Assembly: GCA_002353585.1 (NCBI GenBank)
Contig: DEJW01000005.1
Location: 8,155-72,154 of the forward strand
Reading direction: 5' to 3'
Source: Prevotellaceae bacterium UBA2738
GTDB lineage: Bacteria > Bacteroidota > Bacteroidia > Bacteroidales > Bacteroidaceae
Length of the DNA stretch: 64,000 bases
Numbering within the stretch: the stretch's first letter is position 1; each line of letters opens with the position of its first letter. Positions 23,608 to 36,473 of this stretch are shown piece by piece. The position numbers and the translations under genes were made by a program. The notes beneath the pieces are model-generated. The model was not told the origin of the DNA, did no database searches, and was given only the letters and a program-made list of their open reading frames with translations.

Positions 23608-24135
23608 TTACTTCACCACTTTCCTTGTGGTTCCGTCACTCATCTTGAGGATGTTCAATCCCTTTTGAGGCTGAGAGAACTGCTTGCCATCGAGGGAATA
23701 ATATTTCGCTTCATTAGTATTAGAAGCGGAAACATCTTTAACTGCCGTTTCATCCATCTCTACTATATTTACAAAGTTCTTCCAACCAGTTGTAGAAAGA
23801 TACTTGTCTTTCGTACCAAAAGGAACATACAGTGTAGCATTAGAATAGTTCGAATTATCGAAGTTTGAACCTATAACGCTTGCAGGCTCCTCTATGTAAC
23901 TACATACCGATGTCAGTCCTGAGCAACCTGAGAAAGCATGATATTCTATGCTTGTCACGCTGTTAGGGATAGTGATAGAGGTCAGTCCTGAGCAACCAGA
24001 GAAAGCCCATTCTCCTATGCTCGTCACGCTATTAGGGATGGTTATAGAGGTCAGTCCTGAGCAACCATCGAAAGCATAATTTCCAATGCTCGTCACACTG
24101 TTAGGGATGGTAATAGAGGTCAGTCCTGAGCAATA
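23608..24135 (-). pseudogene. 5'-truncated BspA-type leucine-rich-repeat protein retaining a T9SS C-terminal sorting domain
   Basis: 23-aa LRR units ([19 protein letters not shown]) are encoded by a 69-bp DNA period, with GTCAGTCCTGAGCAA at 23912, 23981, 24050 and 24119. The fourth unit breaks off at about 24135 and the frame closes with a stop about 30 nt further upstream, so there is no signal peptide. The C-terminal YYSLDGKQF...[17 protein letters not shown] resembles a type-A CTD. Confidence 0.7.
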
Positions 24136-25108: not shown

Positions 25109-25468
25109 TTATTCAGATATAACCCACTTTCTCAAGATGTCTTTGCCTTCATGCTTCAAAATACCTTTCTTCTCCAAAGCAGAAAGGTCACGTTCGATGG
25201 TGCGCTGGCTCACCGACAAAGTCTCCGACACGTCTCCGTCATAGTCTCCGACATTTTGTGTGTCGGAGGAGGCGAAGATAACGGTCTGGAATTGGGTCGG
25301 AGTAGATTTGAACTTGGGCTTTAGCTCGTCCTTATAACCTTCCAAGGCTTTGGTCTCATTACAGATGCGTGTGAGTCCACTGCCTCGTTTCTCCATGTAG
25401 TCAAGTTGAGCCATTACGTTTGCAAGTATGGGATTGCGCCTTTCAGAAGACACATCTTTGATGTCCAA
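25109..25468 (-). pseudogene. C-terminal remnant of an AlbA_2/HATPase_c_4-type putative transcriptional regulator ('ATP-binding protein')
   Basis: Only 119 aa remain. RNPILANVMAQLDYMEKRGSGLTRI and a terminal HTH (LSVSQRTIERDLSALEKKGIL) match the C-terminal quarter of roughly 450-500-aa Schlafen/AlbA_2 family proteins. The space where the N-terminus should be is occupied by the PfkB gene. Confidence 0.5.
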
Positions 25469-25491: not shown

Positions 25492-26385
25492 TTACTGCAT
25501 CATGCCTCGCGCCCCTTCATAAGAGCAACTCTCAGCACCTACTTTCTGTGCTTCATTTAGAGCTGTTTCCAAATCTGATTCTAAGAGATTGCATATTCCG
25601 AACATTACTTTGTTTTTGAACAAATTATTAATCAAGGCAGCCGCTGTCCAGTCACCCGCACCAGCTGTATCCACCACTTTTTCATTTGCAATAGGTTCCA
25701 AGTGCTTCCAATCGCCACTCAAGCGGTAGCTCAAGCCCTTTGCTCCTTGCGTCTGGATAAACAGCTTATCCTTATAGTCTTTAAACTGGTTAATCTCTTT
25801 TATCCTCTGTTCCGAGAACTTGACTATATCAGACACCTCAACACATTTGTAGAACAGGCTGACATTACCTCCTCTGCTAGAAGGCTCAAAGAATATCACC
25901 GAACCCTTTTCCTTGAATGTAGTGGCTAGCTTCAAGATCGCGGGTGAAACCCTGTCAAAGAAGAATACCTTTGGCACAAAGTCTATCCTCTCAATCACCC
26001 CATTTGCCTGTTTCAGCGTCAGCGACTTGAAGTCCAGATAGAACCGTCCGATATTGTTGCGCGATTCAAACTTATGCGTGGGAATACCGTCCTTGTTAAT
26101 GAAGTTACGCTGCACGATCACCGGTGTCTTACCGTCTTGGGTAGAGACAAAATCAGTGTGTACGCGGTGCTTTTTCATGTCATCCAGCACTCTCACCCCG
26201 TCTTTCGTCCCATCCAAACGGGCTATGGGATAAGCATCCCAACCCATGTGGGAGAGAATCATCATCACATTACCGCATGTGCCACCCACGTAATAGGATA
26301 TAGGGACTCTTTGCCCGTCCCATATCAAAACATCCAGGCAAATCAGACCTGCTCCAACTACTATATTATTTGTTTCAAGTTTCAT
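25492..26385 (-). CDS. PfkB (ribokinase-like) family sugar/nucleoside kinase
   Basis: 297 aa. It has the N-terminal GG-dipeptide region (YYVGGTCGNV) and the C-terminal anion-hole motif VVDTAGAGDWTAAAL (DTxGAGD). Confidence 0.8.
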   Translation of the reverse strand: MKLETNNIVVGAGLICLDVLIWDGQRVPISYYVGGTCGNVMMILSHMGWDAYPIARLDGTKDGVRVLDDMKKHRVHTDFVSTQDGKTPVIVQRNFINKDGIPTHKFESRNNIGRFYLDFKSLTLKQANGVIERIDFVPKVFFFDRVSPAILKLATTFKEKGSVIFFEPSSRGGNVSLFYKCVEVSDIVKFSEQRIKEINQFKDYKDKLFIQTQGAKGLSYRLSGDWKHLEPIANEKVVDTAGAGDWTAAALINNLFKNKVMFGICNLLESDLETALNEAQKVGAESCSYEGARGMMQ

Positions 26386-26421
26386 GATTCAAGTTTCAAA
26401 ATTCAAGTTTCAAGATTCAAA
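26374..26421. repeat. three tandem 14-bp repeats (TTCAAGTTTCA core) spanning the abiEii stop / PfkB start junction
   Basis: Cores lie at 26374, 26388 and 26402. The first copy contains the PfkB start codon and codons 2-4 (MKLE). The abiEii stop is at 26417..26419. Confidence 0.8.
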
Positions 26422-27220
26422 CTACAGGATTAAGCCTCTCCACCAATTCCGCTTTCACCTTTTCCCACGCCACCTGAGGGTCATACTCCACCTGTGGCCC
26501 AAGAATCATTTCCGTGTCCGTCAAGAATTCCTCATCCTGTAGTTTCCCGTCCATATTCAACAAAAACTCTTTGTATGTTGGCAAGTGAGACGCTGTAAAG
26601 CCCAGATACCGCTCATAGCTCTCCATCACTTTCACTTTATTCAACTCAGGGCGCATTGACAGAATCTTCCACAGGTCAAACAAATCACGTCCTTTTCTCC
26701 GCTGATACACAGCCCTCAGTTTCGTCCCTGTCAACTCTGCTAACTCATAGGTCAGCACCTCGCATGTACCTTTGAACCACGTACTATTCACTTCAAAAGG
26801 CTCTCTTACCATTGGATATACCGAGAAATGCTCCTTGCAGTTAATCTCCACCTTCAAGTGAATCTCCCCCGCATCCATATCCGTCGGTTGCACCTTGAAC
26901 ACCAGCGTATTGTTGTGCTTCTTCTGCTTCACCACCGGCTCACCCAGCCAAGCCAAAGCATCCCGCAGATGGTCAATCGTCTCTTTGATGGGTTCCGCCT
27001 GCACTTGTACAAGGTCGATGTCTTCCGAGTATCTGGGCTGCGGCTTCAGATACAGCTTACCTAATGCCGTGCCGCCTCTGAATGCCAGATGCTCCGCAAG
27101 AAATGCATCGCTATAGATAGACACTAACGCACGGCAGACTATCAAATCCTGTTCGATGAATTTATTCACCACCCACGGGGCCTGCTCGCTCCATTCCGTA
27201 ATATATCGCTCTGGTATCAT
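26417..27220 (-). CDS. abiEii: AbiEii/AbiGii-family nucleotidyltransferase toxin (type IV TA / abortive infection)
   Basis: 267 aa. The N-terminus reads MIPERYITEWSEQAPW...LAFRGGTALGKLYL...RYSEDIDL (GG..L and the DxD of the NTase fold). 4-nt overlap with abiEi. Confidence 0.88.
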   Translation of the reverse strand: MIPERYITEWSEQAPWVVNKFIEQDLIVCRALVSIYSDAFLAEHLAFRGGTALGKLYLKPQPRYSEDIDLVQVQAEPIKETIDHLRDALAWLGEPVVKQKKHNNTLVFKVQPTDMDAGEIHLKVEINCKEHFSVYPMVREPFEVNSTWFKGTCEVLTYELAELTGTKLRAVYQRRKGRDLFDLWKILSMRPELNKVKVMESYERYLGFTASHLPTYKEFLLNMDGKLQDEEFLTDTEMILGPQVEYDPQVAWEKVKAELVERLNPVV

Positions 27221-28023
27221 AACTCGTCAATCTCTATGGTTTCGTTCACAATAATTCTCCACTTGGCGTTTCTTTCGCCCCCCTCGCTACTCTTTCCAGC
27301 CTTTAAAGGCACATACTGGAGTGCGAAACCGGAACACTTCAACAGACTGTACACCGACTCTGCCGCTTCTCCTTCCTCCAGCACCTCGTCCAGAATGTAG
27401 CCCAGACGTTGCAGACTGGTTACAGGCACTTCCTTCACGAAGTCAGCCCCTAAACGCCCGAAATCCAGTTTCTCAGCCAGTTCAGCCAGAACAGTGGCTG
27501 CCCGCGAAACGCTCCCTGTCTTTGCCTGATACGTAAGCAAATCCACTGCCGTCAGTTCAGGACACGACACGTTAATGTAGCCCGTCCGCGTCTGCCGTCT
27601 CTCCACATATGTCTCAGGAATATGACTTTTGCAGAAATAATGCGTAAGGTACTTCTCTCCCTTCTTGTCGCGCATGGCGGGAGGCTCTATCATCACGCTG
27701 AACCGCAGCGGAACCTGATGCGAAGCTCCGTGATAACTTGCCGCACTCAACAGAGCCACATAGTATTTGCGTCCCAGATGGTGCATCATGTCGTCTAAGT
27801 AAAACGACTGCGGCACAGCCCCGCGCAGCACATACTCATCTGGCACAATGACGTAGAAGCCGCGCATGGGCGACATAATCCGTCTCTTGCTCACCTCCCT
27901 GGTCAGAGCACGCGCAATGCTACCAGCGCTCATTTCAGAAAATACCTGCGCCACCTCATTGTGTGTGAAGGTGTAATTGCCTCTAAGCGGCTTATCATAT
28001 ATCCAGTTTGCAATGCTTGCCAT
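27217..28023 (-). CDS. abiEi: AbiEi-family antitoxin / transcriptional regulator
   Basis: 268 aa with an N-terminal wHTH-like region. Size and position immediately upstream of, and overlapping, abiEii fit the family. The sequence pattern (RGFYVIVP...YYVALLSAASYHGASHQ) is typical of Bacteroidales AbiEi. Confidence 0.82.
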   Translation of the reverse strand: MASIANWIYDKPLRGNYTFTHNEVAQVFSEMSAGSIARALTREVSKRRIMSPMRGFYVIVPDEYVLRGAVPQSFYLDDMMHHLGRKYYVALLSAASYHGASHQVPLRFSVMIEPPAMRDKKGEKYLTHYFCKSHIPETYVERRQTRTGYINVSCPELTAVDLLTYQAKTGSVSRAATVLAELAEKLDFGRLGADFVKEVPVTSLQRLGYILDEVLEEGEAAESVYSLLKCSGFALQYVPLKAGKSSEGGERNAKWRIIVNETIEIDEL

Positions 28024-28136: not shown

Positions 28137-29276
28137 TCAATTTTCATTATAAGCCTCACCTGTTATCCAGAGGAGAAATGGTTCACTTTCCTTATTCAAC
28201 TCTTCAAACTCAAAGGCATCATCTATCTCGTAACTGGTTGAGCTTACATTGTATATAGCCACACTATCATTGTGCTCAATACCAACCAACAATGCACCCA
28301 TCGATAGTAGTTTACTTGTCAGCAACGCGATGCCAAAACACACATGATCACTTATAGGTTTAAGCGTATCATTATGTCCCTTCATCAAGTTCAATATTTT
28401 TCTATACAGCTCAAAGGGATTTTGTTCGTCCGCATATGTAAAGTTTTGTGCAGATGTCAAATGATGATCAGAGAAGAATTCGTGATACTCCTGCATAAGG
28501 TTATCAGAACGACGAGGATTCTTTGAAGGGAAGGGTAAAACTGGAAACATATCAGATGGCTGAAAGTGATTATAAATCCTGTTCAAAATAGCCAAATTGT
28601 GCTCACCCATCAAAGGAATTAATATATTGACTCTGTCAAGTACAGACTCCCTATTAGACATGGCTTTAAAGCCTACTAATGGTTCAATACTTTCGTTACT
28701 GATATTTTTCTTTATTTTTTCATCAATCTTCCAATTCTCAGAGACAGCGAAGAACATGTTCTTTGTCTTGTCATCCTTCAGCTTTCGGTAAAGGGATTTA
28801 GCAATATTGAAATAAAATGACCTGGGCAAAGAACTGGCGTCTAGAATGATGTCATTATAACCACTAAAGTCCATATTAAGAATTTCCAGGCTCATTTTAG
28901 ATATGCGCTTATCCCATATCAACTTGGAATCAACTGGTATATCCCTTACGACAAAACCATATTGAACCTGCAATTCTTTTAGATGCTGAACATTTAACTT
29001 GTATAACTTCTTTTTCTCTTTATGGTCGTCATCGCCATCTGGAAAGTCAAAAGTTATGCAGTCAATACGCAATCCTTGAACAGAACTTAGTAACAACTCC
29101 AACACATTATTCATACGTGGATCAAAGCCCTTTCCCAGAAAGAAGAGAACCTTTGAGTCGTGTTTATCCTTATAGAACTCCACCCAAAATTTCTTTAACT
29201 CTTTGGGCTTATGATACATCACATAAGACTCCCACTTATTGTGCATATCTTTACTCATTTTTACTTGCTTATCCAT
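28137..29276 (-). CDS. hypothetical protein, gene 4 (D) of the candidate operon; weak Rossmannoid/CARF-like features only
   Basis: 379 aa with a 16-nt overlap with the upstream ATPase gene. No catalytic motif recognised. VLFFLGKGFDPR and IILDASSLPRSFYF resemble strand-loop elements of Rossmann-like ligand-binding domains. Confidence 0.7.
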   Translation of the reverse strand: MDKQVKMSKDMHNKWESYVMYHKPKELKKFWVEFYKDKHDSKVLFFLGKGFDPRMNNVLELLLSSVQGLRIDCITFDFPDGDDDHKEKKKLYKLNVQHLKELQVQYGFVVRDIPVDSKLIWDKRISKMSLEILNMDFSGYNDIILDASSLPRSFYFNIAKSLYRKLKDDKTKNMFFAVSENWKIDEKIKKNISNESIEPLVGFKAMSNRESVLDRVNILIPLMGEHNLAILNRIYNHFQPSDMFPVLPFPSKNPRRSDNLMQEYHEFFSDHHLTSAQNFTYADEQNPFELYRKILNLMKGHNDTLKPISDHVCFGIALLTSKLLSMGALLVGIEHNDSVAIYNVSSTSYEIDDAFEFEELNKESEPFLLWITGEAYNEN

Positions 29277-31090
29277 TGTTTAAGTTGGCTCAAAGGCAAT
29301 TTACGCCAACCGCCTCTTCGCAAAGGGATATTCGCATGGGCACACAACCAGTAATTAAGATAAAATACCGTCCAGTTTTGCCCTTTTTCGCCTTGTGTAT
29401 GTGGATCTTTCTCCAAAAGATTAAAAGCCATACAGTCTCTCAGTAAAAGTGCCACCTCGCTATTCTTCTCATCCTGAAACCAGAAACCATCATAACCATA
29501 TCTTCCGGAATTCTCTTCCTTGACGGCAAAACCACTTACAGTTCGGTACGAATAACTATCGGAATAGGTTTGTTCCTTACAGAAAGATATTACTTGATTC
29601 AAAAATGCATATATTTTGTTTCCTCTAGGCAAACGTTTGATTTCTTCAAAGCGTTTCTTACAAAAGGACTTAATAATACTATCCTGCGTTTCAGGTTCCA
29701 AAGCATAATTTGCAGAATCCATAATTTTCTTTGCTAATAGAACCTCAAACATTCTGGAGGACAAATGAAGGAAAAGTTCAATATTTCCTGCTGATAGGTT
29801 TATTAATGTCTGTGAGCCGTAATACTGAGGTAGTCTCTTTATTTCACCAGGCAACAAATCAGCTGCAAGAGGAGATAATTCCATTAGGATTCCCTGTATT
29901 TCTTCTTCACTATACTCAAAAAGTCTAGCTGACTGACGTGAGGCATATATTAACAAAGCGCGACTATGGAGTGCTTTCTCATACGGTTCTTCTTTCTGTA
30001 TAGCCTTAATACCTTCAGCATAATTATCATAAACAGGCAGTGCTTTTAATTGAGTTAGATACTCCACACTCTTTTCGTTGTATTCATCCGTATAATTGAC
30101 GGTTGAGATTTCCGAAAGGTACGTAAACAGGTCAATGCCGTCTTCTGATTGTTTAGAGCGAATAGATGCCGTAGTAGTGGCCATTCTATTGAAGAGACTT
30201 TGAGACAAAGTATCCAACTTTATCACTTGAAAATCACGATCCATTATATTATTGTCGCTCAGGATCTCAACAGAACTGAGTGATTCCATACGTTCTGCAA
30301 GCCACAAGGTTGCCTTTTGGCGCATTCCTGCTACCTCATCACGAATAATCTTCTGCTGGTTATCTGACAACTTATGTCCATCATCAAATTGAAAGATGAA
30401 CTCTTCGCATAACGGCTTGTTATCAAATCGGAACCAAGTAGCTTTCATAGCGCTTAACGCAAATAATCTTATGTTTCCTTTGAATCCACCTTCCGGCGGC
30501 AGGAAGCTATCAAGGAACTCGCATACGCGACCTTCTTTGTCTGCAGCCCAGTCTAATAATTCCTTACCAGTATAAAATGCTTTGATGGCTCCCAACTCTG
30601 GAATTGGTTCCTCAGGTGTAAAAACCAATCTGTCTAAATCAGTGTATTTAACACCAGCCAGTGTCATACATGTTTTCAGGGTTGCGAGCACAATTCTTGC
30701 ATTAAGCAATGACAGAAATATACTTGTTTGCTCAGCTTCGCTGAACTGCTCGTCTTCCAATAATTTGTACTCACGTCCCATCTGTAGATAGACACCACAC
30801 TTTTGTATCTGCTCTCCATTACGCACTTCCAACTTCTTCAATTTTTTGAAGATAACCGGATAGTTAGTCTTAGTTACCTTTTGTAGAACTGATGGTGAGA
30901 ATAGCCGTAATAGTGTGGTCTTACCTGCACCCGGGGTACTCATTATATAGGTAAGTGTACCCCATAGCGTGTCATTCTTATAGTTATCCTCCAAATAGGA
31001 CAAGGGTTCTACAGAAAACAAGTCCAGGAACCTTTCATCAGTCTCTATTCGTTCAGAGACCCGTATGGAAAATGGATTCTTATAACTCAT
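29261..31090 (-). CDS. P-loop NTPase, gene 3 (C) of the candidate operon
   Basis: 609 aa. Walker A is MSTPGAGKTTLLRLF and the Walker B-like motif is EEFIFQFDDGHKL. A long helical C-terminal region of unknown function follows. Confidence 0.8.
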   Translation of the reverse strand: MSYKNPFSIRVSERIETDERFLDLFSVEPLSYLEDNYKNDTLWGTLTYIMSTPGAGKTTLLRLFSPSVLQKVTKTNYPVIFKKLKKLEVRNGEQIQKCGVYLQMGREYKLLEDEQFSEAEQTSIFLSLLNARIVLATLKTCMTLAGVKYTDLDRLVFTPEEPIPELGAIKAFYTGKELLDWAADKEGRVCEFLDSFLPPEGGFKGNIRLFALSAMKATWFRFDNKPLCEEFIFQFDDGHKLSDNQQKIIRDEVAGMRQKATLWLAERMESLSSVEILSDNNIMDRDFQVIKLDTLSQSLFNRMATTTASIRSKQSEDGIDLFTYLSEISTVNYTDEYNEKSVEYLTQLKALPVYDNYAEGIKAIQKEEPYEKALHSRALLIYASRQSARLFEYSEEEIQGILMELSPLAADLLPGEIKRLPQYYGSQTLINLSAGNIELFLHLSSRMFEVLLAKKIMDSANYALEPETQDSIIKSFCKKRFEEIKRLPRGNKIYAFLNQVISFCKEQTYSDSYSYRTVSGFAVKEENSGRYGYDGFWFQDEKNSEVALLLRDCMAFNLLEKDPHTQGEKGQNWTVFYLNYWLCAHANIPLRRGGWRKLPLSQLKQWISK

Positions 31091-31095
31091 ACGGA

Positions 31096-32253
31096 TTAGT
31101 GACGGCTAATGCGTGGAAATAAGCCACGGAATTGATTGGAATCCTGCCAAAGTATAGGCAGTGAGTTGTTTGGTGTATTGTGAGATAGCACTAAAGGAAG
31201 AGCGCATTCGTCAAATCCGAGGTATGGATGAGTAGTATTGCCCACCTTATATGCATCACTCTCGGTAACTTCATCGGTGAGATATTGTGGTTTCTTGAGA
31301 ACTGCCATCAAATCAACATCTGTAATAATGGAATTGCTCAATTCATTTTCAAGTTCTTGAACGATGTGTATCTCGAAAGTCACTTTTTTCTTAAACTGTC
31401 GCGACTTCAAATAGCTTTTTAGTCCATTTTCTATATTGGCTTTAGCTTTTTGAGTGGCCATACAGAAAAAAATGTCTATATGAATAACGTTATGATTAGG
31501 ATCAAGTACAAAACTCAAATGCTTCTTATCTTCTATGCCTGTTTTCTTTTTTCCCTCTGTTGCTATCTTATTCTCAGCACAAAGCTGATCAATTATCTTA
31601 GTAAGCTTGCCCTTGTATTTCTTTTCTTTTTTGTCATAGCGCACAAAACTCTTACCGCTAGCAGTAAAGTCGTCAATCAAAAAAATGCTCTGATAATACT
31701 TTGTGTTGTCACCCATTTTTTTCATATCATTCTGTAACTTCTTGAGTAGGTCGTCTATTTTCTCAGCATCAGGATAATAATTGGTTAACACCTGCTCGTT
31801 GCTAAAACCGGCATCACGACGAAGTATATCAATATGGGCACCATCACTAAGTCCAATAACTAGAGAGGAACGTTTCTCTATCCTGAAACGATTAACCACC
31901 TCCTTATTGGCTAAACAATAGGAAGCCTTACCTGTAGCCTTCGTTGCTTTGCTTAATAACAATGGTCGTATATTAGTATCATACAGCAAATCAACCAGAT
32001 AATTCATCTGAGTGGAAGAGATAAATACCAACCTGCTCTTTATGAATTTAAAAGCCACATCGCGGTCCTCTTGATCTAAACGATTCAACCACTGCACCAA
32101 ACTACTCATAAATCGCATACCAGGCATAAAGCGGTCATAACCATCGTATTTCATGCTTCCCATGAATTCAAGGGCCGCCCTCTCATTTGCCAATTGCTGT
32201 GGTTCCCACCCCATAATACTGGCAAGTAGTCTATGTGCCAAATTACTGTTCAT
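31096..32253 (-). CDS. phosphoribosyltransferase (PRTase)-fold protein, gene 2 (B) of the candidate operon
   Basis: 385 aa. The PRPP-binding-loop-like motif SIFLIDDFTASGKSF (four hydrophobic residues, an acidic pair, then a T/S-G-rich loop) lies behind a roughly 190-aa N-terminal region of unknown function. 4-nt overlap with gene A. Confidence 0.7.
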   Translation of the reverse strand: MNSNLAHRLLASIMGWEPQQLANERAALEFMGSMKYDGYDRFMPGMRFMSSLVQWLNRLDQEDRDVAFKFIKSRLVFISSTQMNYLVDLLYDTNIRPLLLSKATKATGKASYCLANKEVVNRFRIEKRSSLVIGLSDGAHIDILRRDAGFSNEQVLTNYYPDAEKIDDLLKKLQNDMKKMGDNTKYYQSIFLIDDFTASGKSFVRYDKKEKKYKGKLTKIIDQLCAENKIATEGKKKTGIEDKKHLSFVLDPNHNVIHIDIFFCMATQKAKANIENGLKSYLKSRQFKKKVTFEIHIVQELENELSNSIITDVDLMAVLKKPQYLTDEVTESDAYKVGNTTHPYLGFDECALPLVLSHNTPNNSLPILWQDSNQFRGLFPRISRH

Positions 32254-34151
32254 ACACTAAACTTACATTTAATCACACCATCCTTTGCAAAGAGCCGGCT
32301 CAGATAATAGAGCGTTGCATCAAGCCCATATATACCTGATGGGGCTATATTCCAGCAACTCTCTGCATTTTTCGATACGCGGTCAACGCTCAATGAATAC
32401 TTACTAGTCAGCATTTCGTAGTCGTTACCTTCCACTGTGCCATAATCACCTATGCACAAGGTGTGCCAGAAGTCTTCTATTACCCGTAGTTTGCTCACTT
32501 CACGGTAAACCACAATATCCATACTGTGACTACTACGCCACATACGGATACCATTCAACTGCTTGTCCCAAATGATTTCGCAGCAGGTGGAGTAAAGTAC
32601 CTCTGCATCAGATGAAGACTGCACTTCTTCTATAGAGAGCTGCTGGCTGCGGGGTGAAAGTTTATACTTGATAAAGTCCTTAGGTAAACGTCTCTGTAAT
32701 TCTTCACTCAGTTCTTTCAATTCGCTATCAAAGGGCTGTTTCTTCCATCTTTTCAGTTCATCTTCATCACCCAAAGCCAACAGGCAAGCGCCATTATAAT
32801 AACCCACCTTTATCTGTGGCCAATACATTTGGTCTAAGGAGTTCTTAAACGAATCCCCTACTGACTTGCCACGACCTGTTGCAACGACTATCTGAACTCT
32901 ATTTTCCAACAACGGCAAAAGAGCATTCTTTATCTCATCACACAATCTGTTTGTGAAACGGCTCTTATGGTTTGCAGCAGACAGTGTACCGTCATAGTCA
33001 AAGGCCACAGTAGTAAACTTGCCCTTATTCAGCTGCTTTACAAACCGCTGACAAGCCTCACTGTAATACTCCCATAATGGGGCATTTTCTATTCCTGAAG
33101 ATCCCAGTTTGCGACGTACCGCCACATCTAGTGTCTTTTCTGCGGGCAGTATGCGGTTGGTCAACTTGAAGTAGTCCAAATTATATAGTGTACGACCATA
33201 GGAAGGTACACCTGGACGACCTGGATCTATTCCACGAGCCACACCCAAATCATTCACAAAGCGGAACGCCTTTAGCAGCATGTCGATAGATGCAGCAGGC
33301 GTTTCCAACTCCGTTTCTATGAATACCACCGGTACATCCTTGGGCAAACAGCCAATGGTCTTATATGCCAGTTCCTGCTCAACGGGAGTTATCAGCGCAA
33401 TAATGCAAGAGTTATCTCCCTTCTTTGAAAACCAATGATGACGACCATGACCAAAGTTACGATAGTCGCTGAGCAAAGCAGAGCCTAAAGCAGCTTCTGT
33501 GAGTTTAGACTCAATATCCCACGCTACAGGTTCACCGGTTGCGCCATACAACACCAGAAAGTTTTGAATGCAGGTCAAGTCAAATTCATAATTCTTGGTA
33601 TATGTACCAAAAACCTGATAATTGAAACCTGAAACATCACTTAAACACTCAGCCGCCTTACATAGAAGTGCAAAAGTGGCTGCTAAAGAGTTGGTGGCCA
33701 GAAAGCCATCTTTCTCGCTGGGGATGTCTTCACACCAGCGCAGCACTTTGGGGTATTGGTCCAATAGTTCCTCGGTAGGATTGTTCTTGCGGAGGGTCAG
33801 GCTCATCATGCCTATCTCGTTATACTTTACGCCATACTTGATGGCATTCAGTATATCCTTGTTCTTACCACTGGCACTAAGGAAAAGTAGTTTGCTGCTA
33901 CGGATAATATTATGCCCTGCATACATCAACTGAAGCGGTGTCATAGCCTGTGCCAGCACACCATTGCACTGCTGATAGAGCTGGGCTGCATAATGGCAAG
34001 CACTAAGCGAACCGCCAGAGCCAATACACACCAAAGGTATCTGCTTGTTCTCTGCAAACAAAAACTGGGCAAGACGCATCACATCTTGCTGCTCAGCCCA
34101 TCGAATAGTTTCCGAAAGCTTTTTCAGTTCTTCCTTAAATGGCTTTCCCAT
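32250..34151 (-). CDS. double-SIS (GlmS/AgaS/FrlB-like phosphosugar-binding) domain fused to a HAD-IIB (Cof-type) phosphatase, gene 1 (A) of the candidate operon
   Basis: 633 aa. SIS-1 is LVCIGSGGSLSACHYAA...LLFLSASGKNKDILNA...FLATNSLAATFALL. SIS-2 is LVLYGATGEPVAWDIESKLTEA...FGHGRHHW. The HAD motifs are FDYDGTL (I), VVATGRG (II) and CIGDYGTVEGNDYEML (IV). Confidence 0.8.
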   Translation of the reverse strand: MGKPFKEELKKLSETIRWAEQQDVMRLAQFLFAENKQIPLVCIGSGGSLSACHYAAQLYQQCNGVLAQAMTPLQLMYAGHNIIRSSKLLFLSASGKNKDILNAIKYGVKYNEIGMMSLTLRKNNPTEELLDQYPKVLRWCEDIPSEKDGFLATNSLAATFALLCKAAECLSDVSGFNYQVFGTYTKNYEFDLTCIQNFLVLYGATGEPVAWDIESKLTEAALGSALLSDYRNFGHGRHHWFSKKGDNSCIIALITPVEQELAYKTIGCLPKDVPVVFIETELETPAASIDMLLKAFRFVNDLGVARGIDPGRPGVPSYGRTLYNLDYFKLTNRILPAEKTLDVAVRRKLGSSGIENAPLWEYYSEACQRFVKQLNKGKFTTVAFDYDGTLSAANHKSRFTNRLCDEIKNALLPLLENRVQIVVATGRGKSVGDSFKNSLDQMYWPQIKVGYYNGACLLALGDEDELKRWKKQPFDSELKELSEELQRRLPKDFIKYKLSPRSQQLSIEEVQSSSDAEVLYSTCCEIIWDKQLNGIRMWRSSHSMDIVVYREVSKLRVIEDFWHTLCIGDYGTVEGNDYEMLTSKYSLSVDRVSKNAESCWNIAPSGIYGLDATLYYLSRLFAKDGVIKCKFSV

Positions 34152-34197
34152 AATTAAACTTTGAGTCCACTTAAAAAAGTGGCATTAATTTGATTTA

Positions 34198-34205
34198 CAA
34201 AGGTA
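34198..34205 (-). promoter_or_regulatory. -7 promoter box (TACCTTTG on the minus strand) for the four-gene operon
   Basis: Perfect TAnnTTTG match 46 nt upstream of the ATG at 34151. Confidence 0.5.
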
Positions 34206-34592: not shown

Positions 34593-36473
34593 ATGAAGAG
34601 TAGATTTTTGGTTATGGTTTCGATGCTACTGAGTATAACAAGTTATGCTCAAGTAACGACAATGTTCTATGGCCGTAATAAGATTCAATCAAAGAATGAA
34701 ACAGCAGCTTTGTATTCTGTAGAAATATATGAGAATAATACAAGAGTAACTGTTGAGTTAATACCAACAAAAAATCGTTCCCGCATGAATTATTGGACAA
34801 GCAGGAACACATACATAATAGTTGATGATAATATTGAGCTTCCCATACTTGGTTTCTTGGGAGAAAGGAGTGGGGAGCCAGTTGTTGATACAGATCCGTT
34901 TTCTGGGAATTGGGGATGGAGCAATGTGAAAAAAGATACAAAGTACTATTACACAATGGTCTTTGCTGGTAAAATTCCTCCAGGAATGACTAATTTTACA
35001 TTGAAGGATAAAGGTGCATATAATGGGGCGCATGGTTATGGATTCAGCAATTACGAACTTAATAATCCAAGAACAGGTACCACATCTTGGACTGAAGCAT
35101 CCGTAAAACAATTCGCAGATGCCAATAATGATGGCATCTGCGGAATCTATGAAGGCTCTGGAACGAATGGATATAAACTCGGATGTATAAAGGAGGGAAT
35201 TGAATACAGATTATTGTATCTCGGTGGAAAAGAACGATTGTCATGGTGGCAAATAGGTGATACAAAGGCTGTGTTACGGAATAGTGCAACTACAGGCTTC
35301 TTTAAGGGAGACTGGTATATGCAAGATAAGACACCAAATTCTGATTGTTATGTGGTTTTTGATGGAGGAAGTATGAAAACCATCATAGATAATGAAGAAG
35401 AATTTTATTTGAAGATGTATCCGACATCAAATTCAAATGGAACAAATACGGTTGCAGAGAAATGGACCGGTACAGGATTTGCATTAAATGGCGAATATAT
35501 AGTAACAAACTACCATGTTGTGGAAAATGCCACATCTATCAAAGTTCAAGGAGTGAGAGGAGATTTTAATAAAGTATATAATGCCAATGTCGTGTCAACT
35601 GACAAAACAAATGATTTAGCGATTATAAAAATCTCCGACCAGAACTTTAATGGGTTCGGCAATATACCATACAAAGTGAAAACCTCTTTATCAGAAGTAG
35701 GTGAAGATGTCTTTGTCTTGGGATATCCTCTTACTTCTACAATGGGAGATGAAATCAAACTGACTACAGGCGTAATCAGTTCTAAAACTGGATTTCAAGG
35801 TGACATTTCTCTTTATCAAATTTCAGCTCCTATACAACCAGGGAACAGCGGTGGGCCAGTCTTTGATGGGAAGGGCAATCTTATCGGGATTGTAAATGCT
35901 AAGCATAGAGGTGCCGAAAATGTAAGCTATGCCATAAAGTCTTCATATTTAGGCAATTTAATAGAAAGTGCCACATACGTTTCAGTTTTGCCCTCTAACA
36001 ACACCATTTCAACAATGTCATTGAGTAACAAAGTAAAGAATATTAGGGACTTTGTATTCATGATTACTTGTTCAAATGGACAACAAGCGACAGCAATGTC
36101 AAGTCAAAATGACATAGTTATCTCTTATCCATCAGTATCAAGCAATACTCTCAATGATTCACAACACTACACCTCTACACTTATATCAAAAGTTACTGTA
36201 GGAAACTACGCCACAATAATAGAACTAACCTTAAAGAATTATGTGTGGTGTTCCATAAATCCAGGAACATACATTTATGCTAATGGACAAAAATATACAT
36301 TACAACGTTCAGAGGGCATTGCAACCGAACCACAAAAAACTTATCCTTCTTATCGCGGTGCTGATATAGTATGTAGGTTGTATTTTCCTCCGATACCAAA
36401 ATCAACCAACTCTTTTGATTTGATAGAAAGTCAGAGTAGTAGATGGAAATTTTATGGGGTGAAACTGAGATAA
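34593..36473 (+). CDS. secreted trypsin-like (S1/S1C-type) serine protease with unknown N- and C-terminal domains
   Basis: 626 aa with a signal peptide (SMLLSITSYAQ). The catalytic triad context is IVTNYHVV (His), NDLAIIKI (Asp) and QPGNSGGPVFD (Ser). Confidence 0.8.
   Translation: MKSRFLVMVSMLLSITSYAQVTTMFYGRNKIQSKNETAALYSVEIYENNTRVTVELIPTKNRSRMNYWTSRNTYIIVDDNIELPILGFLGERSGEPVVDTDPFSGNWGWSNVKKDTKYYYTMVFAGKIPPGMTNFTLKDKGAYNGAHGYGFSNYELNNPRTGTTSWTEASVKQFADANNDGICGIYEGSGTNGYKLGCIKEGIEYRLLYLGGKERLSWWQIGDTKAVLRNSATTGFFKGDWYMQDKTPNSDCYVVFDGGSMKTIIDNEEEFYLKMYPTSNSNGTNTVAEKWTGTGFALNGEYIVTNYHVVENATSIKVQGVRGDFNKVYNANVVSTDKTNDLAIIKISDQNFNGFGNIPYKVKTSLSEVGEDVFVLGYPLTSTMGDEIKLTTGVISSKTGFQGDISLYQISAPIQPGNSGGPVFDGKGNLIGIVNAKHRGAENVSYAIKSSYLGNLIESATYVSVLPSNNTISTMSLSNKVKNIRDFVFMITCSNGQQATAMSSQNDIVISYPSVSSNTLNDSQHYTSTLISKVTVGNYATIIELTLKNYVWCSINPGTYIYANGQKYTLQRSEGIATEPQKTYPSYRGADIVCRLYFPPIPKSTNSFDLIESQSSRWKFYGVKLR

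What the first reader, a model, noticed from the sequence alone, without database searches (positions are those of the whole stretch)
32250..34151. Unusual fusion: GlmS/AgaS-type double SIS module joined to a Cof-type HAD phosphatase
SIS-1 (GSGGS...SASGKN...ATNSLAAT) and SIS-2 (YGATGEP...FGHGRHHW) together look like the isomerase/deglycase half of GlmS/FrlB/AgaS. There is no glutaminase domain. Instead a complete HAD-IIB sugar-phosphatase follows (DxDGT, TGR, GD...GND). An isomerase coupled to a phosphatase in one polypeptide implies channeling of a phosphosugar to a dephosphorylated product. This parallels the GmhA (SIS) / GmhB (HAD) / PfkB-kinase logic of ADP-heptose synthesis, but here in a defence-island context. 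The canonical SIS-2 ligand-contact sequence (KHGP) is replaced by GHGRHHW, so the module may bind ligand without catalysis.
Basis: partly seen in the sequence, partly recalled or inferred. Interest (0 to 1): 0.6.

Follow-up and report, generated by a model that had tools for sequence, protein, structure and literature searches.

The report
SIS isomerase–HAD phosphatase of PRTase cassette
The gene encodes a real, apparently fully active two-enzyme fusion (sugar-phosphate isomerase plus phosphatase) that is the invariant first gene of a widespread, mobile, untested five-gene cassette, probably an anti-virus system working on nucleotide-precursor chemistry.

Summary
Window 32250-34151 (-) encodes a 633-aa protein with a GlmS/NagB-II-type double SIS module (VIA Z about 30) joined to a HAD-IIB phosphatase domain (Z about 17).

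Lys216, Glu219 and His235 align with the GlmS/NagB-II catalytic Lys, Glu and His, with the same 16-residue Glu-His spacing. Glu219 and His235 are invariant in 221 family members, and so are nearly all HAD motif residues.

The fusion is not rare. It has at least 835 clusters at 50% identity and at least 577 loci in one-genome-per-species data, across many bacterial phyla and methanogens. It is accessory: 1 of 41 related genomes carries it, and it also occurs on plasmids.

In 72 of 80 loci it heads the same operon: SIS-HAD, PRTase-CE, ORC/Cdc6-like ATPase, CARF6-like protein. A PfkB kinase usually follows. Here AbiEi/AbiEii sits between the CARF6 gene and PfkB.

The most likely role, by inference, is processing of phosphoribosyl or phosphosugar metabolites linked to the PRTase effector, together with PfkB.

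This scan found the same cassette before on other DNA, in at least 8 genomes. No experimental study was found.

The parts
32250..34151 (-). SIS-SIS-HAD fusion gene (633 aa, P0001), first gene of the operon. Its stop overlaps the PRTase-CE start (ATGA).
33627..34040 (-). SIS-1 (about residues 38-175). Carries the phosphate-binding loops GSGGS 44-48 and SASGKNKD 92-99, and DGFLATNS 148-155.
33174..33569 (-). SIS-2 (about residues 195-326). Carries Lys216, Glu219 and His235, the family-specific HGRHxW motif and the DPGRPGVP tail.
33018..33173 (-). Helical linker (about residues 327-378) with near-invariant Arg347 and Lys348.
32253..33017 (-). HAD-IIB phosphatase domain (residues 379-633). Motif I D385-x-D387-G-T389, motif II T425, motif III K554, motif IV G568-D569...N576-D577.
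34198..34205 (-). TACCTTTG, which matches the Bacteroidota -7 promoter consensus TAnnTTTG (consensus from my own knowledge). It lies 47 nt upstream of the ATG.
   Evidence: sequence reading only
31096..32253 (-). PRTase-CE protein (385 aa). PRPP loop LIDDFTASG 192-200. It carries G-x14-PNN 346-363, close to the published Gx14PNNxP motif of retron PRTase-like effectors, here followed by S-L-P.
29261..31090 (-). ORC-CDC6-like AAA+ ATPase (609 aa), Walker A GAGKT 54-58.
28137..29276 (-). CARF6-like protein (379 aa), PADLOC PDLC01910 at E 9e-108.
26417..28023 (-). AbiEi/AbiEii toxin-antitoxin pair. It sits in a variable slot between the CARF6 gene and PfkB.
25492..26385 (-). PfkB-family kinase (297 aa, DTAGAGD at 239), the fifth gene of the cassette.

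Best explanation
P0001 is a bifunctional enzyme in which both halves look catalytically competent. The N-terminal double SIS module is of the GlmS/NagB-II/FrlB type. These enzymes open a phosphosugar ring and isomerise, deaminate or deglycate at C1-C2. The C-terminal HAD-IIB module removes, or possibly moves, a phosphate. P0001 is the obligate first gene of a horizontally mobile cassette: SIS-HAD, PRTase-CE, ORC/Cdc6-like ATPase, CARF6-like protein and PfkB kinase. The cassette most likely acts as a defence or conflict system.

Shown: the domain folds, the intact catalytic residues, the rigid gene order, and the patchy, plasmid- and transposon-borne distribution.

Inferred: PRTase-CE is the effector and consumes PRPP, as retron III-A PRTases and ShosT do. 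The ATPase and CARF6 control it. SIS-HAD together with PfkB forms a sugar-phosphate processing arm on the 5-phosphoribosyl side of that reaction.

My favoured version is as follows. SIS binds the 5-phosphate and opens and isomerises or deglycates the ribose-5-phosphate-type product. HAD then removes the phosphate. This either makes PRPP or pentose-phosphate loss irreversible or clears the PRTase product. PfkB supplies the opposing or priming phosphorylation.
For: Folds and residues:
- The SIS module matches at Z about 30 and the HAD module at Z 14-17.
- The profile matches NagB-II at E 2e-6, with K216, E219 and H235 aligned to its K, E and H. The same holds for this genome's own GlmS, with identical 16-residue Glu-His spacing.
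- In 221 members E219, H235, D387, T389, D569, N576 and D577 are invariant, D385 is kept in 220 and K554 in 216.

Operon and distribution:
- 72 of 80 loci carry all four genes in the same order; the other eight lack one or more (six are shorter loci where sequence may run out, L072 shows a split gene and lacks CARF6). PfkB is directly adjacent downstream of the CARF6 gene, on the same strand, in 54 of 72 by the script's test; in 2 more the open frames overlap; in 2 it is adjacent on the opposite strand. It lies 1.1-2.5 kb downstream, behind an insertion, in 11 Bacteroidales loci, as in the window.
- The start and stop codons overlap within the operon.
- The cassette is accessory: 1 of 41 relatives carries it. 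It is found in 20 plasmid records, 10 of them conjugative, and one lies beside TniB/Mu transposase genes. Recurrent neighbours are recombinases, integrases and restriction-modification genes.

Related systems:
- PRTase-CE matches retron III-A effector models.
- Retron-Eco11 activation depletes PRPP (PMC12746101). ShosT toxicity needs PRPP binding (PMC12961424).
- Relatives of the cassette's PfkB are fused to ADP-ribosylglycohydrolase, NADAR or a nucleotidyltransferase, which points to ribosyl chemistry.

Expression:
- Near-identical contigs in three animal-gut RNA libraries from two studies cover the operon, and one bridges the SIS-HAD/PRTase junction. This is weak evidence, because DNA carry-over is not excluded.
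Against: No substrate is known for any of the five proteins, and no experiment on this cassette was found. The GlmS Schiff-base Lys (K603) has no conserved counterpart here, and the usual T-K of SIS-1 is replaced by K-D, so the chemistry may differ from every characterised relative. The HAD fold ties equally with phosphomutases and with IMP nucleotidase, so 'phosphatase on a sugar' is not proven. A kinase plus a phosphatase in one system could also mean synthesis of a signal rather than a drain. The defence function rests on context only. The cassette was not found in phage genomes, which neither supports nor contradicts a defence role.
Confidence: 0.4

Rival explanations
1. Signal synthesis. 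PRTase-CE, SIS-HAD and PfkB together build or tailor a nucleoside- or nucleotide-like small molecule from PRPP. The CARF6-like protein reads this molecule. This would resemble the predicted PRTase plus HAD signal-biosynthesis pair of Ter systems.
For: A CARF-type sensor sits in the operon with no known signal synthase. PRTase plus HAD is described as a predicted nucleoside/nucleotide-derivative signal pathway in Ter systems (PMC7824862). The HAD fold is also close to the IMP-specific nucleotidase ISN1.
Against: If this were so, no obvious effector would remain in the cassette. PRTase-CE relatives act as effectors in retrons. A three-enzyme metabolic route is unusual for an infection-triggered signal.
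Confidence: 0.2
2. Eraser or antidote arm. PfkB and the double SIS act like FrlD/FrlB, a kinase plus a deglycase. Together with HAD they remove or detoxify phosphoribosyl- or Amadori-type adducts made by PRTase-CE, which protects the host until infection.
For: Characterised double-SIS enzymes break or make C-N bonds at C1/C2 of phosphosugars; FrlB matches at Z 23.3. The PfkB protein weakly matches fructoselysine 6-kinase. PfkB relatives are fused to the N-glycoside erasers NADAR and ADP-ribosylglycohydrolase. SIS-HAD is the first gene and is translationally coupled to PRTase-CE, as an antitoxin would be.
Against: The PfkB protein matches ribose-1-phosphate kinase better than FrlD, and all these matches fall far below the curated cut-offs. 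The genomic context of the fused PfkB proteins is unknown. No toxicity data exist.
Confidence: 0.15
3. GmhA/HldE/GmhB-like 'phosphate walk'. SIS isomerises a ketose phosphate, PfkB phosphorylates the anomeric carbon, and HAD removes the distal phosphate. The result is a sugar-1-phosphate, or HAD acts as a mutase. The product serves as a precursor or ligand.
For: The same three enzyme classes make up the ADP-heptose route (my own knowledge). Relatives of the cassette's PfkB are fused to a cytidylyltransferase-like domain, as in HldE. Phosphomannomutases tie with phosphatases in the HAD fold search.
Against: The SIS here is the double GlmS type rather than the GmhA type, and the HAD is IIB rather than IIIA. 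This cassette has no nucleotidyltransferase.
Confidence: 0.12
4. One reading: the SIS module is a ligand-binding sensor without catalysis, and only the HAD domain is an enzyme.
For: Non-catalytic SIS domains exist in RpiR/MurR regulators and GKRP, and these appear as weak matches. The K603 equivalent is not conserved.
Against: Lys216 is K in 213 and R in 7 of 221 members. Glu219 and His235 are invariant in 221 of 221 and keep the exact catalytic spacing.
Confidence: 0.06
5. An ordinary housekeeping amino-sugar or sugar-phosphate catabolic enzyme that merely lies in the island.
For: RefSeq names members 'HAD hydrolase family protein' or 'sucrose-6-phosphate hydrolase'.
Against: It has rigid synteny with PRTase-CE, the ORC-like ATPase and CARF6 across phyla. 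It is absent from 40 of 41 relatives. It is carried on plasmids and transposons. No sugar transporter or regulator recurs beside it.
Confidence: 0.03

Closest known systems
Double-SIS phosphosugar isomerase/deaminase/deglycase family (GlmS isomerase module, NagB-II, AgaS, FrlB)
   Same: It has two tandem SIS domains (Z 23-30). It has Ser-rich phosphate loops. Its Lys, Glu and His align with the catalytic residues, with the same 16-residue spacing.
   Different: It has no glutaminase domain and only 12-19% identity. The Schiff-base Lys of GlmS is not conserved. It has its own invariant motifs (KDGFLATNS, RNF-HGRH-W, DPGRPGVP) and is fused to a HAD domain. Its substrate is unknown.
Cof-type and other HAD-IIB sugar phosphatases (YidA, YbiV, BT4131, PfHAD1), plus PMM, T6PP and ISN1
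   Same: It has all four HAD motifs and a C2B-type cap fold (Z 14-17). All 44 family members match HAD-SF-IIB and 40 match the Cof model at E <= 0.01.
   Different: Scores fall far below the curated cut-offs (25.7 against 41.8 bits; 17.8 against 137 bits). It has its own conserved cap motifs (GYYNG, SSHSxD, CWN). It is never free-standing in the loci examined.
GmhA / HldE kinase / GmhB route to heptose-1-phosphate
   Same: It uses the same trio of enzyme classes (SIS isomerase, PfkB kinase, HAD phosphatase) within one gene set.
   Different: The SIS and HAD subfamilies differ. This cassette has no nucleotidyltransferase. It is tied to PRTase-CE, an ATPase and a CARF-like protein, and it is mobile and accessory.
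PRTase-effector defence systems (type III-A retrons such as Retron-Eco11; ShosTA)
   Same: The partner gene matches the PRTase_III-A models and carries G-x14-PNN, close to the published Gx14PNNxP motif. The context resembles a defence island.
   Different: There is no reverse transcriptase, ncRNA or DprA partner. Instead the partners are an ORC-like ATPase, CARF6, SIS-HAD and PfkB. No experiments exist.
Ter-system PRTase plus HAD pair (predicted nucleoside-like signal synthesis)
   Same: A PRTase and a HAD phosphoesterase occur in one conflict-type operon (PMC7824862).
   Different: The Ter proteins are separate genes with TerB/C/D partners. Here the HAD is fused to a double SIS and the sensor is CARF-like.

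Membership tests
Double-SIS GlmS/NagB-II/AgaS/FrlB family | Two tandem SIS (alpha/beta) domains | tested here: met
   VIA Z 29.6-30.3 to GlmS 249-608 and to NagB-II over model residues 2-326. Foldseek E 1e-13.
Double-SIS GlmS/NagB-II/AgaS/FrlB family | Phosphate-binding Ser/Thr loops (G-x-S and S-x-S-G-x-x-x-D) | tested here: met
   GSGGS 44-48 and SASGKNKD 92-99 align with GRGSS and SQSGRSPD of NagB-II. G46, G47, G95, N97 and D99 are invariant in 221 members.
Double-SIS GlmS/NagB-II/AgaS/FrlB family | Catalytic Glu, with Lys three residues before it and ring-opening His 16 residues after it | tested here: met
   K216, E219 and H235 align with K-x-x-E...H of NagB-II and of this genome's GlmS. 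E219 and H235 are kept in 221 of 221 members.
GlmS (glucosamine-6-phosphate synthase) | N-terminal glutaminase domain and C-terminal Schiff-base Lys in DxPRNLAKSVTVE | tested here: not met
   The protein starts at the SIS module. The tail reads DPGRPGVP, and no Lys is conserved at the candidate positions: 316 is Pro, and 321 is Thr here and Lys in only 126 of 221 members.
Pfam SIS (PF01380) | Score above the gathering threshold | tested here: not met
   18.5 bits against a cut-off of 25 for this sequence. Fold and profile evidence nevertheless place it in the superfamily.
HAD superfamily, subfamily IIB | Motifs I-IV (DxDGT; T/S; K; GDxxxND) | tested here: met
   D385, D387, T389, T425, K554, D569, N576 and D577 are present and are conserved in 216-221 of 221 members.
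HAD superfamily, subfamily IIB | C2B cap inserted between motifs II and III | tested here: met
   The domain model (pLDDT 93) matches IIB structures over residues 17-269 at Z 14-17. HAD-SF-IIB is hit by 44 of 44 members, but P0001 scores 25.7 bits, below the 41.8 cut-off.
Cof subfamily (TIGR00099) | Score above the curated cut-off (137 bits) | tested here: not met
   17.8 bits for P0001. 40 of 44 members match only at E <= 0.01.
GmhA/GmhB ADP-heptose enzymes | Single-SIS GmhA and HAD-IIIA GmhB | tested here: not met
   The SIS is the double GlmS type and the HAD is IIB. The resemblance is in pathway logic only.
PRTase-CE / ORC-CDC6-like / CARF6 / PfkB cassette | All partner genes present in the conserved order on one strand | tested here: met
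   PF24390 at 2.5e-19, PF24389 at 5.6e-29, PDLC01910 at 9e-108 and PfkB at 1e-17. The order matches 72 of 80 loci. PfkB is displaced by an AbiE insertion.
Anti-phage defence system | Experimentally shown protection against phage | not testable with these tools
   Only context is available: AbiE, restriction-modification genes, integrases, plasmids and patchy distribution.

The most novel reading that the evidence does not exclude
The cassette performs chemistry not yet seen in immunity. PRTase-CE would phosphoribosylate an amine acceptor. The double SIS module would then carry out an Amadori-type rearrangement or deglycation of that N-(5-phosphoribosyl) adduct, as HisA and TrpF do after HisG and TrpD. 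HAD and PfkB would toggle its phosphate. The outcome would be a new ribulosamine- or nucleoside-like messenger or antiviral metabolite read by the CARF6 protein.
Probability: 0.15. Interest if true: 0.85.

Novelty: new variant of a known kind. Interest (0 to 1): 0.55.

Why it matters
Known PRTase-based defences (type III-A retrons, ShosTA) have unknown acceptor substrates and no dedicated sugar enzymes. This cassette pairs such a PRTase with a strictly conserved isomerase-phosphatase fusion and a kinase, and all of them have intact active sites. That gives a biochemical handle on what PRTase effectors really make or destroy. It may also show what a CRISPR-independent CARF protein senses. The family is large, spans bacteria and archaea, and is entirely uncharacterised, being annotated only as 'HAD hydrolase'.

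Tried and rejected
- The single-sequence PDB search gave nothing useful; a family profile was needed.
- The papers I suspected of describing the families, tried by DOI and by guessed PMC ids, are not held. Kaur et al. 2020 does not mention them.
- Eight literature searches found no study of this cassette.
- I looked for Rosetta-stone fusions. P0281 is a double SIS plus PfkB, known from one contig. P0273 is CARF6 plus PfkB and may be a read-through.
- L149 encodes a truncated double SIS joined to only the C-terminal part of PRTase-CE, with a degenerate PRPP loop, followed by PfkB. I read it as a decayed, deletion-derived remnant rather than evidence of functional fusion.
- hhalign against this genome's own GlmS gave only 53-61% probability and mis-gapped the His region. 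The residue equivalences therefore rest on the ungapped NagB-II alignment and on the identical spacing.
- No match was found in 50,697 phage records.
- The RNA-library contigs cover the operon but cannot prove transcription.
- Whether the two active sites face each other could not be tested, because no coordinates or PAE were available.
Full report
**Observation.** Window 32250-34151 (minus strand) is a single 633-aa ORF. Single-sequence profile hits are weak: Pfam SIS scores 18.5 bits against a cut-off of 25, Hydrolase_3 sits at its cut-off, and NCBIfam HAD-IIB scores 25.7 against 41.8. I therefore built a family profile and structure models.

**The family.** An exhaustive HMMER search of 1.84 billion representatives found 1832 proteins at E <= 1e-3 and 835 at E <= 1e-30. 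Nearly all of the best 150 are full length, about 630 aa. Close relatives (80-88% identity) abound in gut and rumen Bacteroidales and are named only 'HAD hydrolase family protein'. An alignment of 44 diverse members (A1, 32-81% identity to P0001) shows dense invariant positions in both halves.

**SIS half.**
- The A1 profile matches the Shewanella NagB-II double-SIS deaminase (8eol, 3hba) at E 2.3e-6 over residues 20-237.
- The AlphaFold model (pLDDT 89) matches the GlmS isomerase module, NagB-II, AgaS-like and archaeal deaminases at VIA Z 29-30. The rmsd is 2.5-3.0 A over about 300 residues, covering model residues 2-326, which is the whole two-SIS module including its tail. FrlB scores Z 23.3.
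- In the ungapped HMMER alignment, ESK216-L-S/T-E219...H235 lies on ALKLKE...FLH of NagB-II.
- hhalign against the GlmS encoded by this same genome puts D212, K216 and E219 on the E, K and E of LEGALKLKE.
- The Glu-to-His distance is 16 residues in P0001, in NagB-II and in GlmS, by direct reading.
- Across 221 full-length members, E219 and H235 are invariant and K216 is K in 213 and R in 7.
The His is the conserved one. R237, H238 and W240 are additional family-specific invariants.
- What is not conserved is a counterpart of the GlmS C-terminal Lys in DQPRNLAKSVTVE. The tail here is DPGRPGVP, and the candidate positions are Pro316 and a variable residue 321. That this Lys forms a Schiff base in GlmS is my own knowledge.
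- The chemistry is therefore probably isomerase-, deaminase- or deglycase-like rather than GlmS-like amination. This last step is inference.

**HAD half.**
- A separate 44-sequence alignment (A2) and model (pLDDT 93, pTM 0.91) match HAD-IIB enzymes at Z 14-17. These are the Cof-type sugar phosphatases YbiV, YidA, SupH, BT4131 and PfHAD1, and also phosphomannomutases, trehalose-6-phosphate phosphatases, MpgP and the IMP nucleotidase ISN1. All are effectively tied.
- All four HAD motifs are intact and nearly invariant in 221 members: D385 220, D387 221, T389 221, T/S425 221, K554 216, D569, N576 and D577 221 each.
- All 44 A1 members match NCBIfam HAD-SF-IIB and 40 match the Cof model, all at E <= 0.01; P0001 itself is below both curated cut-offs.
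- The domain is thus a HAD-IIB phosphotransferase with a working active site. Phosphatase or mutase activity, and sugar or nucleotide substrate, cannot be told apart from fold alone.

**Context.**
- The gene starts a tight minus-strand operon. Its stop overlaps the start of a PRTase-CE protein (PF24390, 2.5e-19; PADLOC retron PRTase_III-A models up to 1.9e-17).
- Next come an ORC-CDC6-like AAA+ ATPase (PF24389, 5.6e-29) and a protein that matches PADLOC CARF6 over its full length (9e-108).
- A TACCTTTG box, fitting the Bacteroidota -7 consensus, lies 47 nt upstream of the ATG (the consensus is my own knowledge).
- In the 80 best loci, 72 carry all four genes in the same order and orientation. 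The other eight lack one or more: six are shorter loci where sequence may run out, L054 ends about 30 bases after the SIS-HAD gene, and L072 shows a split gene and lacks CARF6.
- Taxa include Bacteroidota, Myxococcota, Cyanobacteria, Mycobacterium, Acidobacteriota, Chloroflexota, Bacillota, Verrucomicrobiota, and Methanoregula and Methanotrichaceae archaea.
- Only this genome, out of 41 related genomes searched, has the gene.
- It is present on 20 plasmid records, 10 of them conjugative. In an Agrobacterium plasmid it lies beside TniB/Mu-type transposase and recombinase genes and is annotated as 'HAD hydrolase family protein', three 'hypothetical proteins' and 'PfkB family carbohydrate kinase'.
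- No phage record carries it.
- Flanks are otherwise variable. The recurrent neighbours are serine recombinases, integrases, RadC and restriction-modification methylases.

**The fifth gene.**
- Prompted by earlier notes of this scan, I tested for a PfkB kinase. It directly follows the CARF6 gene on the same strand in 54 of 72 loci by the script's test. In 2 more the two open frames overlap, and in 2 it is adjacent on the opposite strand.
- In 11 Bacteroidales loci, and in the window, it lies 1.1-2.5 kb further on.
- In the window that gap holds AbiEi/AbiEii (26417-28023). In relatives the gap holds the same pair, a fused AbiEi-AbiEii-like gene, an AAA_21/AAA_15 ATPase with RloB, or an AAA_14-DUF4143 ATPase.
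- So the PfkB gene at 25492-26385 belongs to the cassette, and the AbiE pair is cargo in an internal variable slot.
- The kinase has the DTAGAGD catalytic motif. Its best NCBIfam matches, all far below cut-off, are ribose-1-phosphate kinase (3e-10), fructokinase, nucleoside kinase and fructoselysine 6-kinase.
- Longer relatives of this PfkB are fused to ADP-ribosylglycohydrolase, NADAR, a cytidylyltransferase-like domain or an alpha/beta hydrolase. One is fused to the cassette's double SIS (P0281) and one to CARF6.
- A metagenome scan with P0281 found no second full fusion. It found only L149, which looks like a decayed cassette next to a helicase-PRTase/DprA pair.

**Expression.** Near-identical contigs in three RNA-seq libraries of animal gut samples, from two studies, cover SIS-HAD, PRTase-CE, the ATPase and CARF6. 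One contig bridges the SIS-HAD/PRTase junction. The tool warns that DNA may be present in such libraries, so this is only a weak hint of transcription.

**Mechanism.** The following points are shown:
- a two-centre enzyme with both active sites under strong purifying selection;
- obligate linkage to PRTase-CE, an AAA+ ATPase, a CARF-like protein and a PfkB kinase;
- mobile, accessory, island-type distribution.

The rest is inferred.
- In characterised PRTase defences, activation of Retron-Eco11 lowers PRPP (PMC12746101). ShosT toxicity needs PRPP binding, and its acceptor is unknown (PMC12961424). PRTase-CE here carries the PRPP loop LIDDFTASG and a G-x14-PNN element close to the published retron motif Gx14PNNxP.
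- I therefore take PRTase-CE as the effector and the ATPase and CARF6 as its controllers.
- I take SIS-HAD plus PfkB as a processing arm for the 5-phosphoribosyl or phosphosugar side of the reaction. SIS would bind the terminal phosphate and open and isomerise or deglycate at C1-C2. HAD would remove the phosphate.
- My favoured reading, at about 0.4, is that this makes PRPP or pentose-phosphate loss irreversible or clears the PRTase product.
- The rivals are signal synthesis for CARF6 (a Ter-like PRTase plus HAD logic, PMC7824862), an FrlD/FrlB-like eraser or antidote arm, a GmhA/HldE/GmhB-like phosphate walk, a non-catalytic SIS sensor, and housekeeping catabolism. The last two are poorly supported.

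**Comparison and novelty.**
- The protein works like a member of the double-SIS and HAD-IIB superfamilies and passes their structural and catalytic-residue tests.
- It fails the curated thresholds of every named subfamily (Pfam SIS, HAD-SF-IIB, Cof) and lacks the GlmS-specific features.
- The partner families are catalogued in Pfam (PF24389, PF24390) and PADLOC (CARF6). However, I found no paper in the held library that describes or tests this cassette, and the likely source papers are not held.
- This scan has reported the same cassette in at least eight other genomes. This window adds a Bacteroidales copy with an internal AbiE insertion.
- I rate it a new variant of a known kind: a PRTase-effector conflict system with a dedicated sugar-phosphate enzyme arm. 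Interest is moderate to high because its enzymology is testable and uncharacterised.

Noticed in passing
window 26417-28023; L003 8390-9993; L011 12438-14781; L012 15060-16259; L016 15088-16089: Gut and rumen Bacteroidales copies of the cassette have a variable cargo slot between the CARF6-like gene and PfkB. Depending on the locus, it holds AbiEi/AbiEii, a fused AbiEi-AbiEii-like gene, an AAA_21/AAA_15 ATPase plus RloB, or an AAA_14-DUF4143 ATPase. This looks like a defence-gene hotspot inside another candidate defence operon.
   Followed up: partly
proteins P0274, P0277, P0278/P0280, P0279, P0281, P0273: Relatives of the cassette-type PfkB kinase (33-37% identity) occur fused to other domains. 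These are ADP-ribosylglycohydrolase, NADAR, a cytidylyltransferase-like domain, a UPF0227 hydrolase, the cassette's double SIS, or CARF6. Their genomic contexts could not be fetched.
   Followed up: partly
L149 3689-10513: A helicase-PRTase fusion plus DprA/SLOG pair (PsyrTA/ShosTA-like) lies next to what looks like a decayed cassette. The remnant is a truncated double SIS joined to the C-terminal third of PRTase-CE with a degenerate PRPP loop, followed by PfkB.
   Followed up: partly
window 34593-36473 (+): A divergently transcribed 626-aa protein has a Trypsin_2 protease domain (residues 293-433). The domain matches protease parts of PADLOC models (RT-Protease_XI, LmuA, HamA, Avs1b). Its N-terminal 270 residues are unassigned. 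It may be a separate defence gene.
   Followed up: no
window 34167-34182 (-): A perfect 6-bp inverted repeat, CCACTT-TTTT-AAGTGG, lies between the putative -7 box and the ATG of the SIS-HAD gene. It is short enough to be chance.
   Followed up: no
window 25109-25468 (-) and 23608-24096 (-): A 119-aa fragment of an HATPase_c_4/HTH regulator and a truncated BspA-type LRR gene lie at the left edge of the island. GH25 lysozyme, RecJ and RecQ genes follow on the right from 38315, so the accessory island spans roughly 24.1-38.3 kb.
   Followed up: partly
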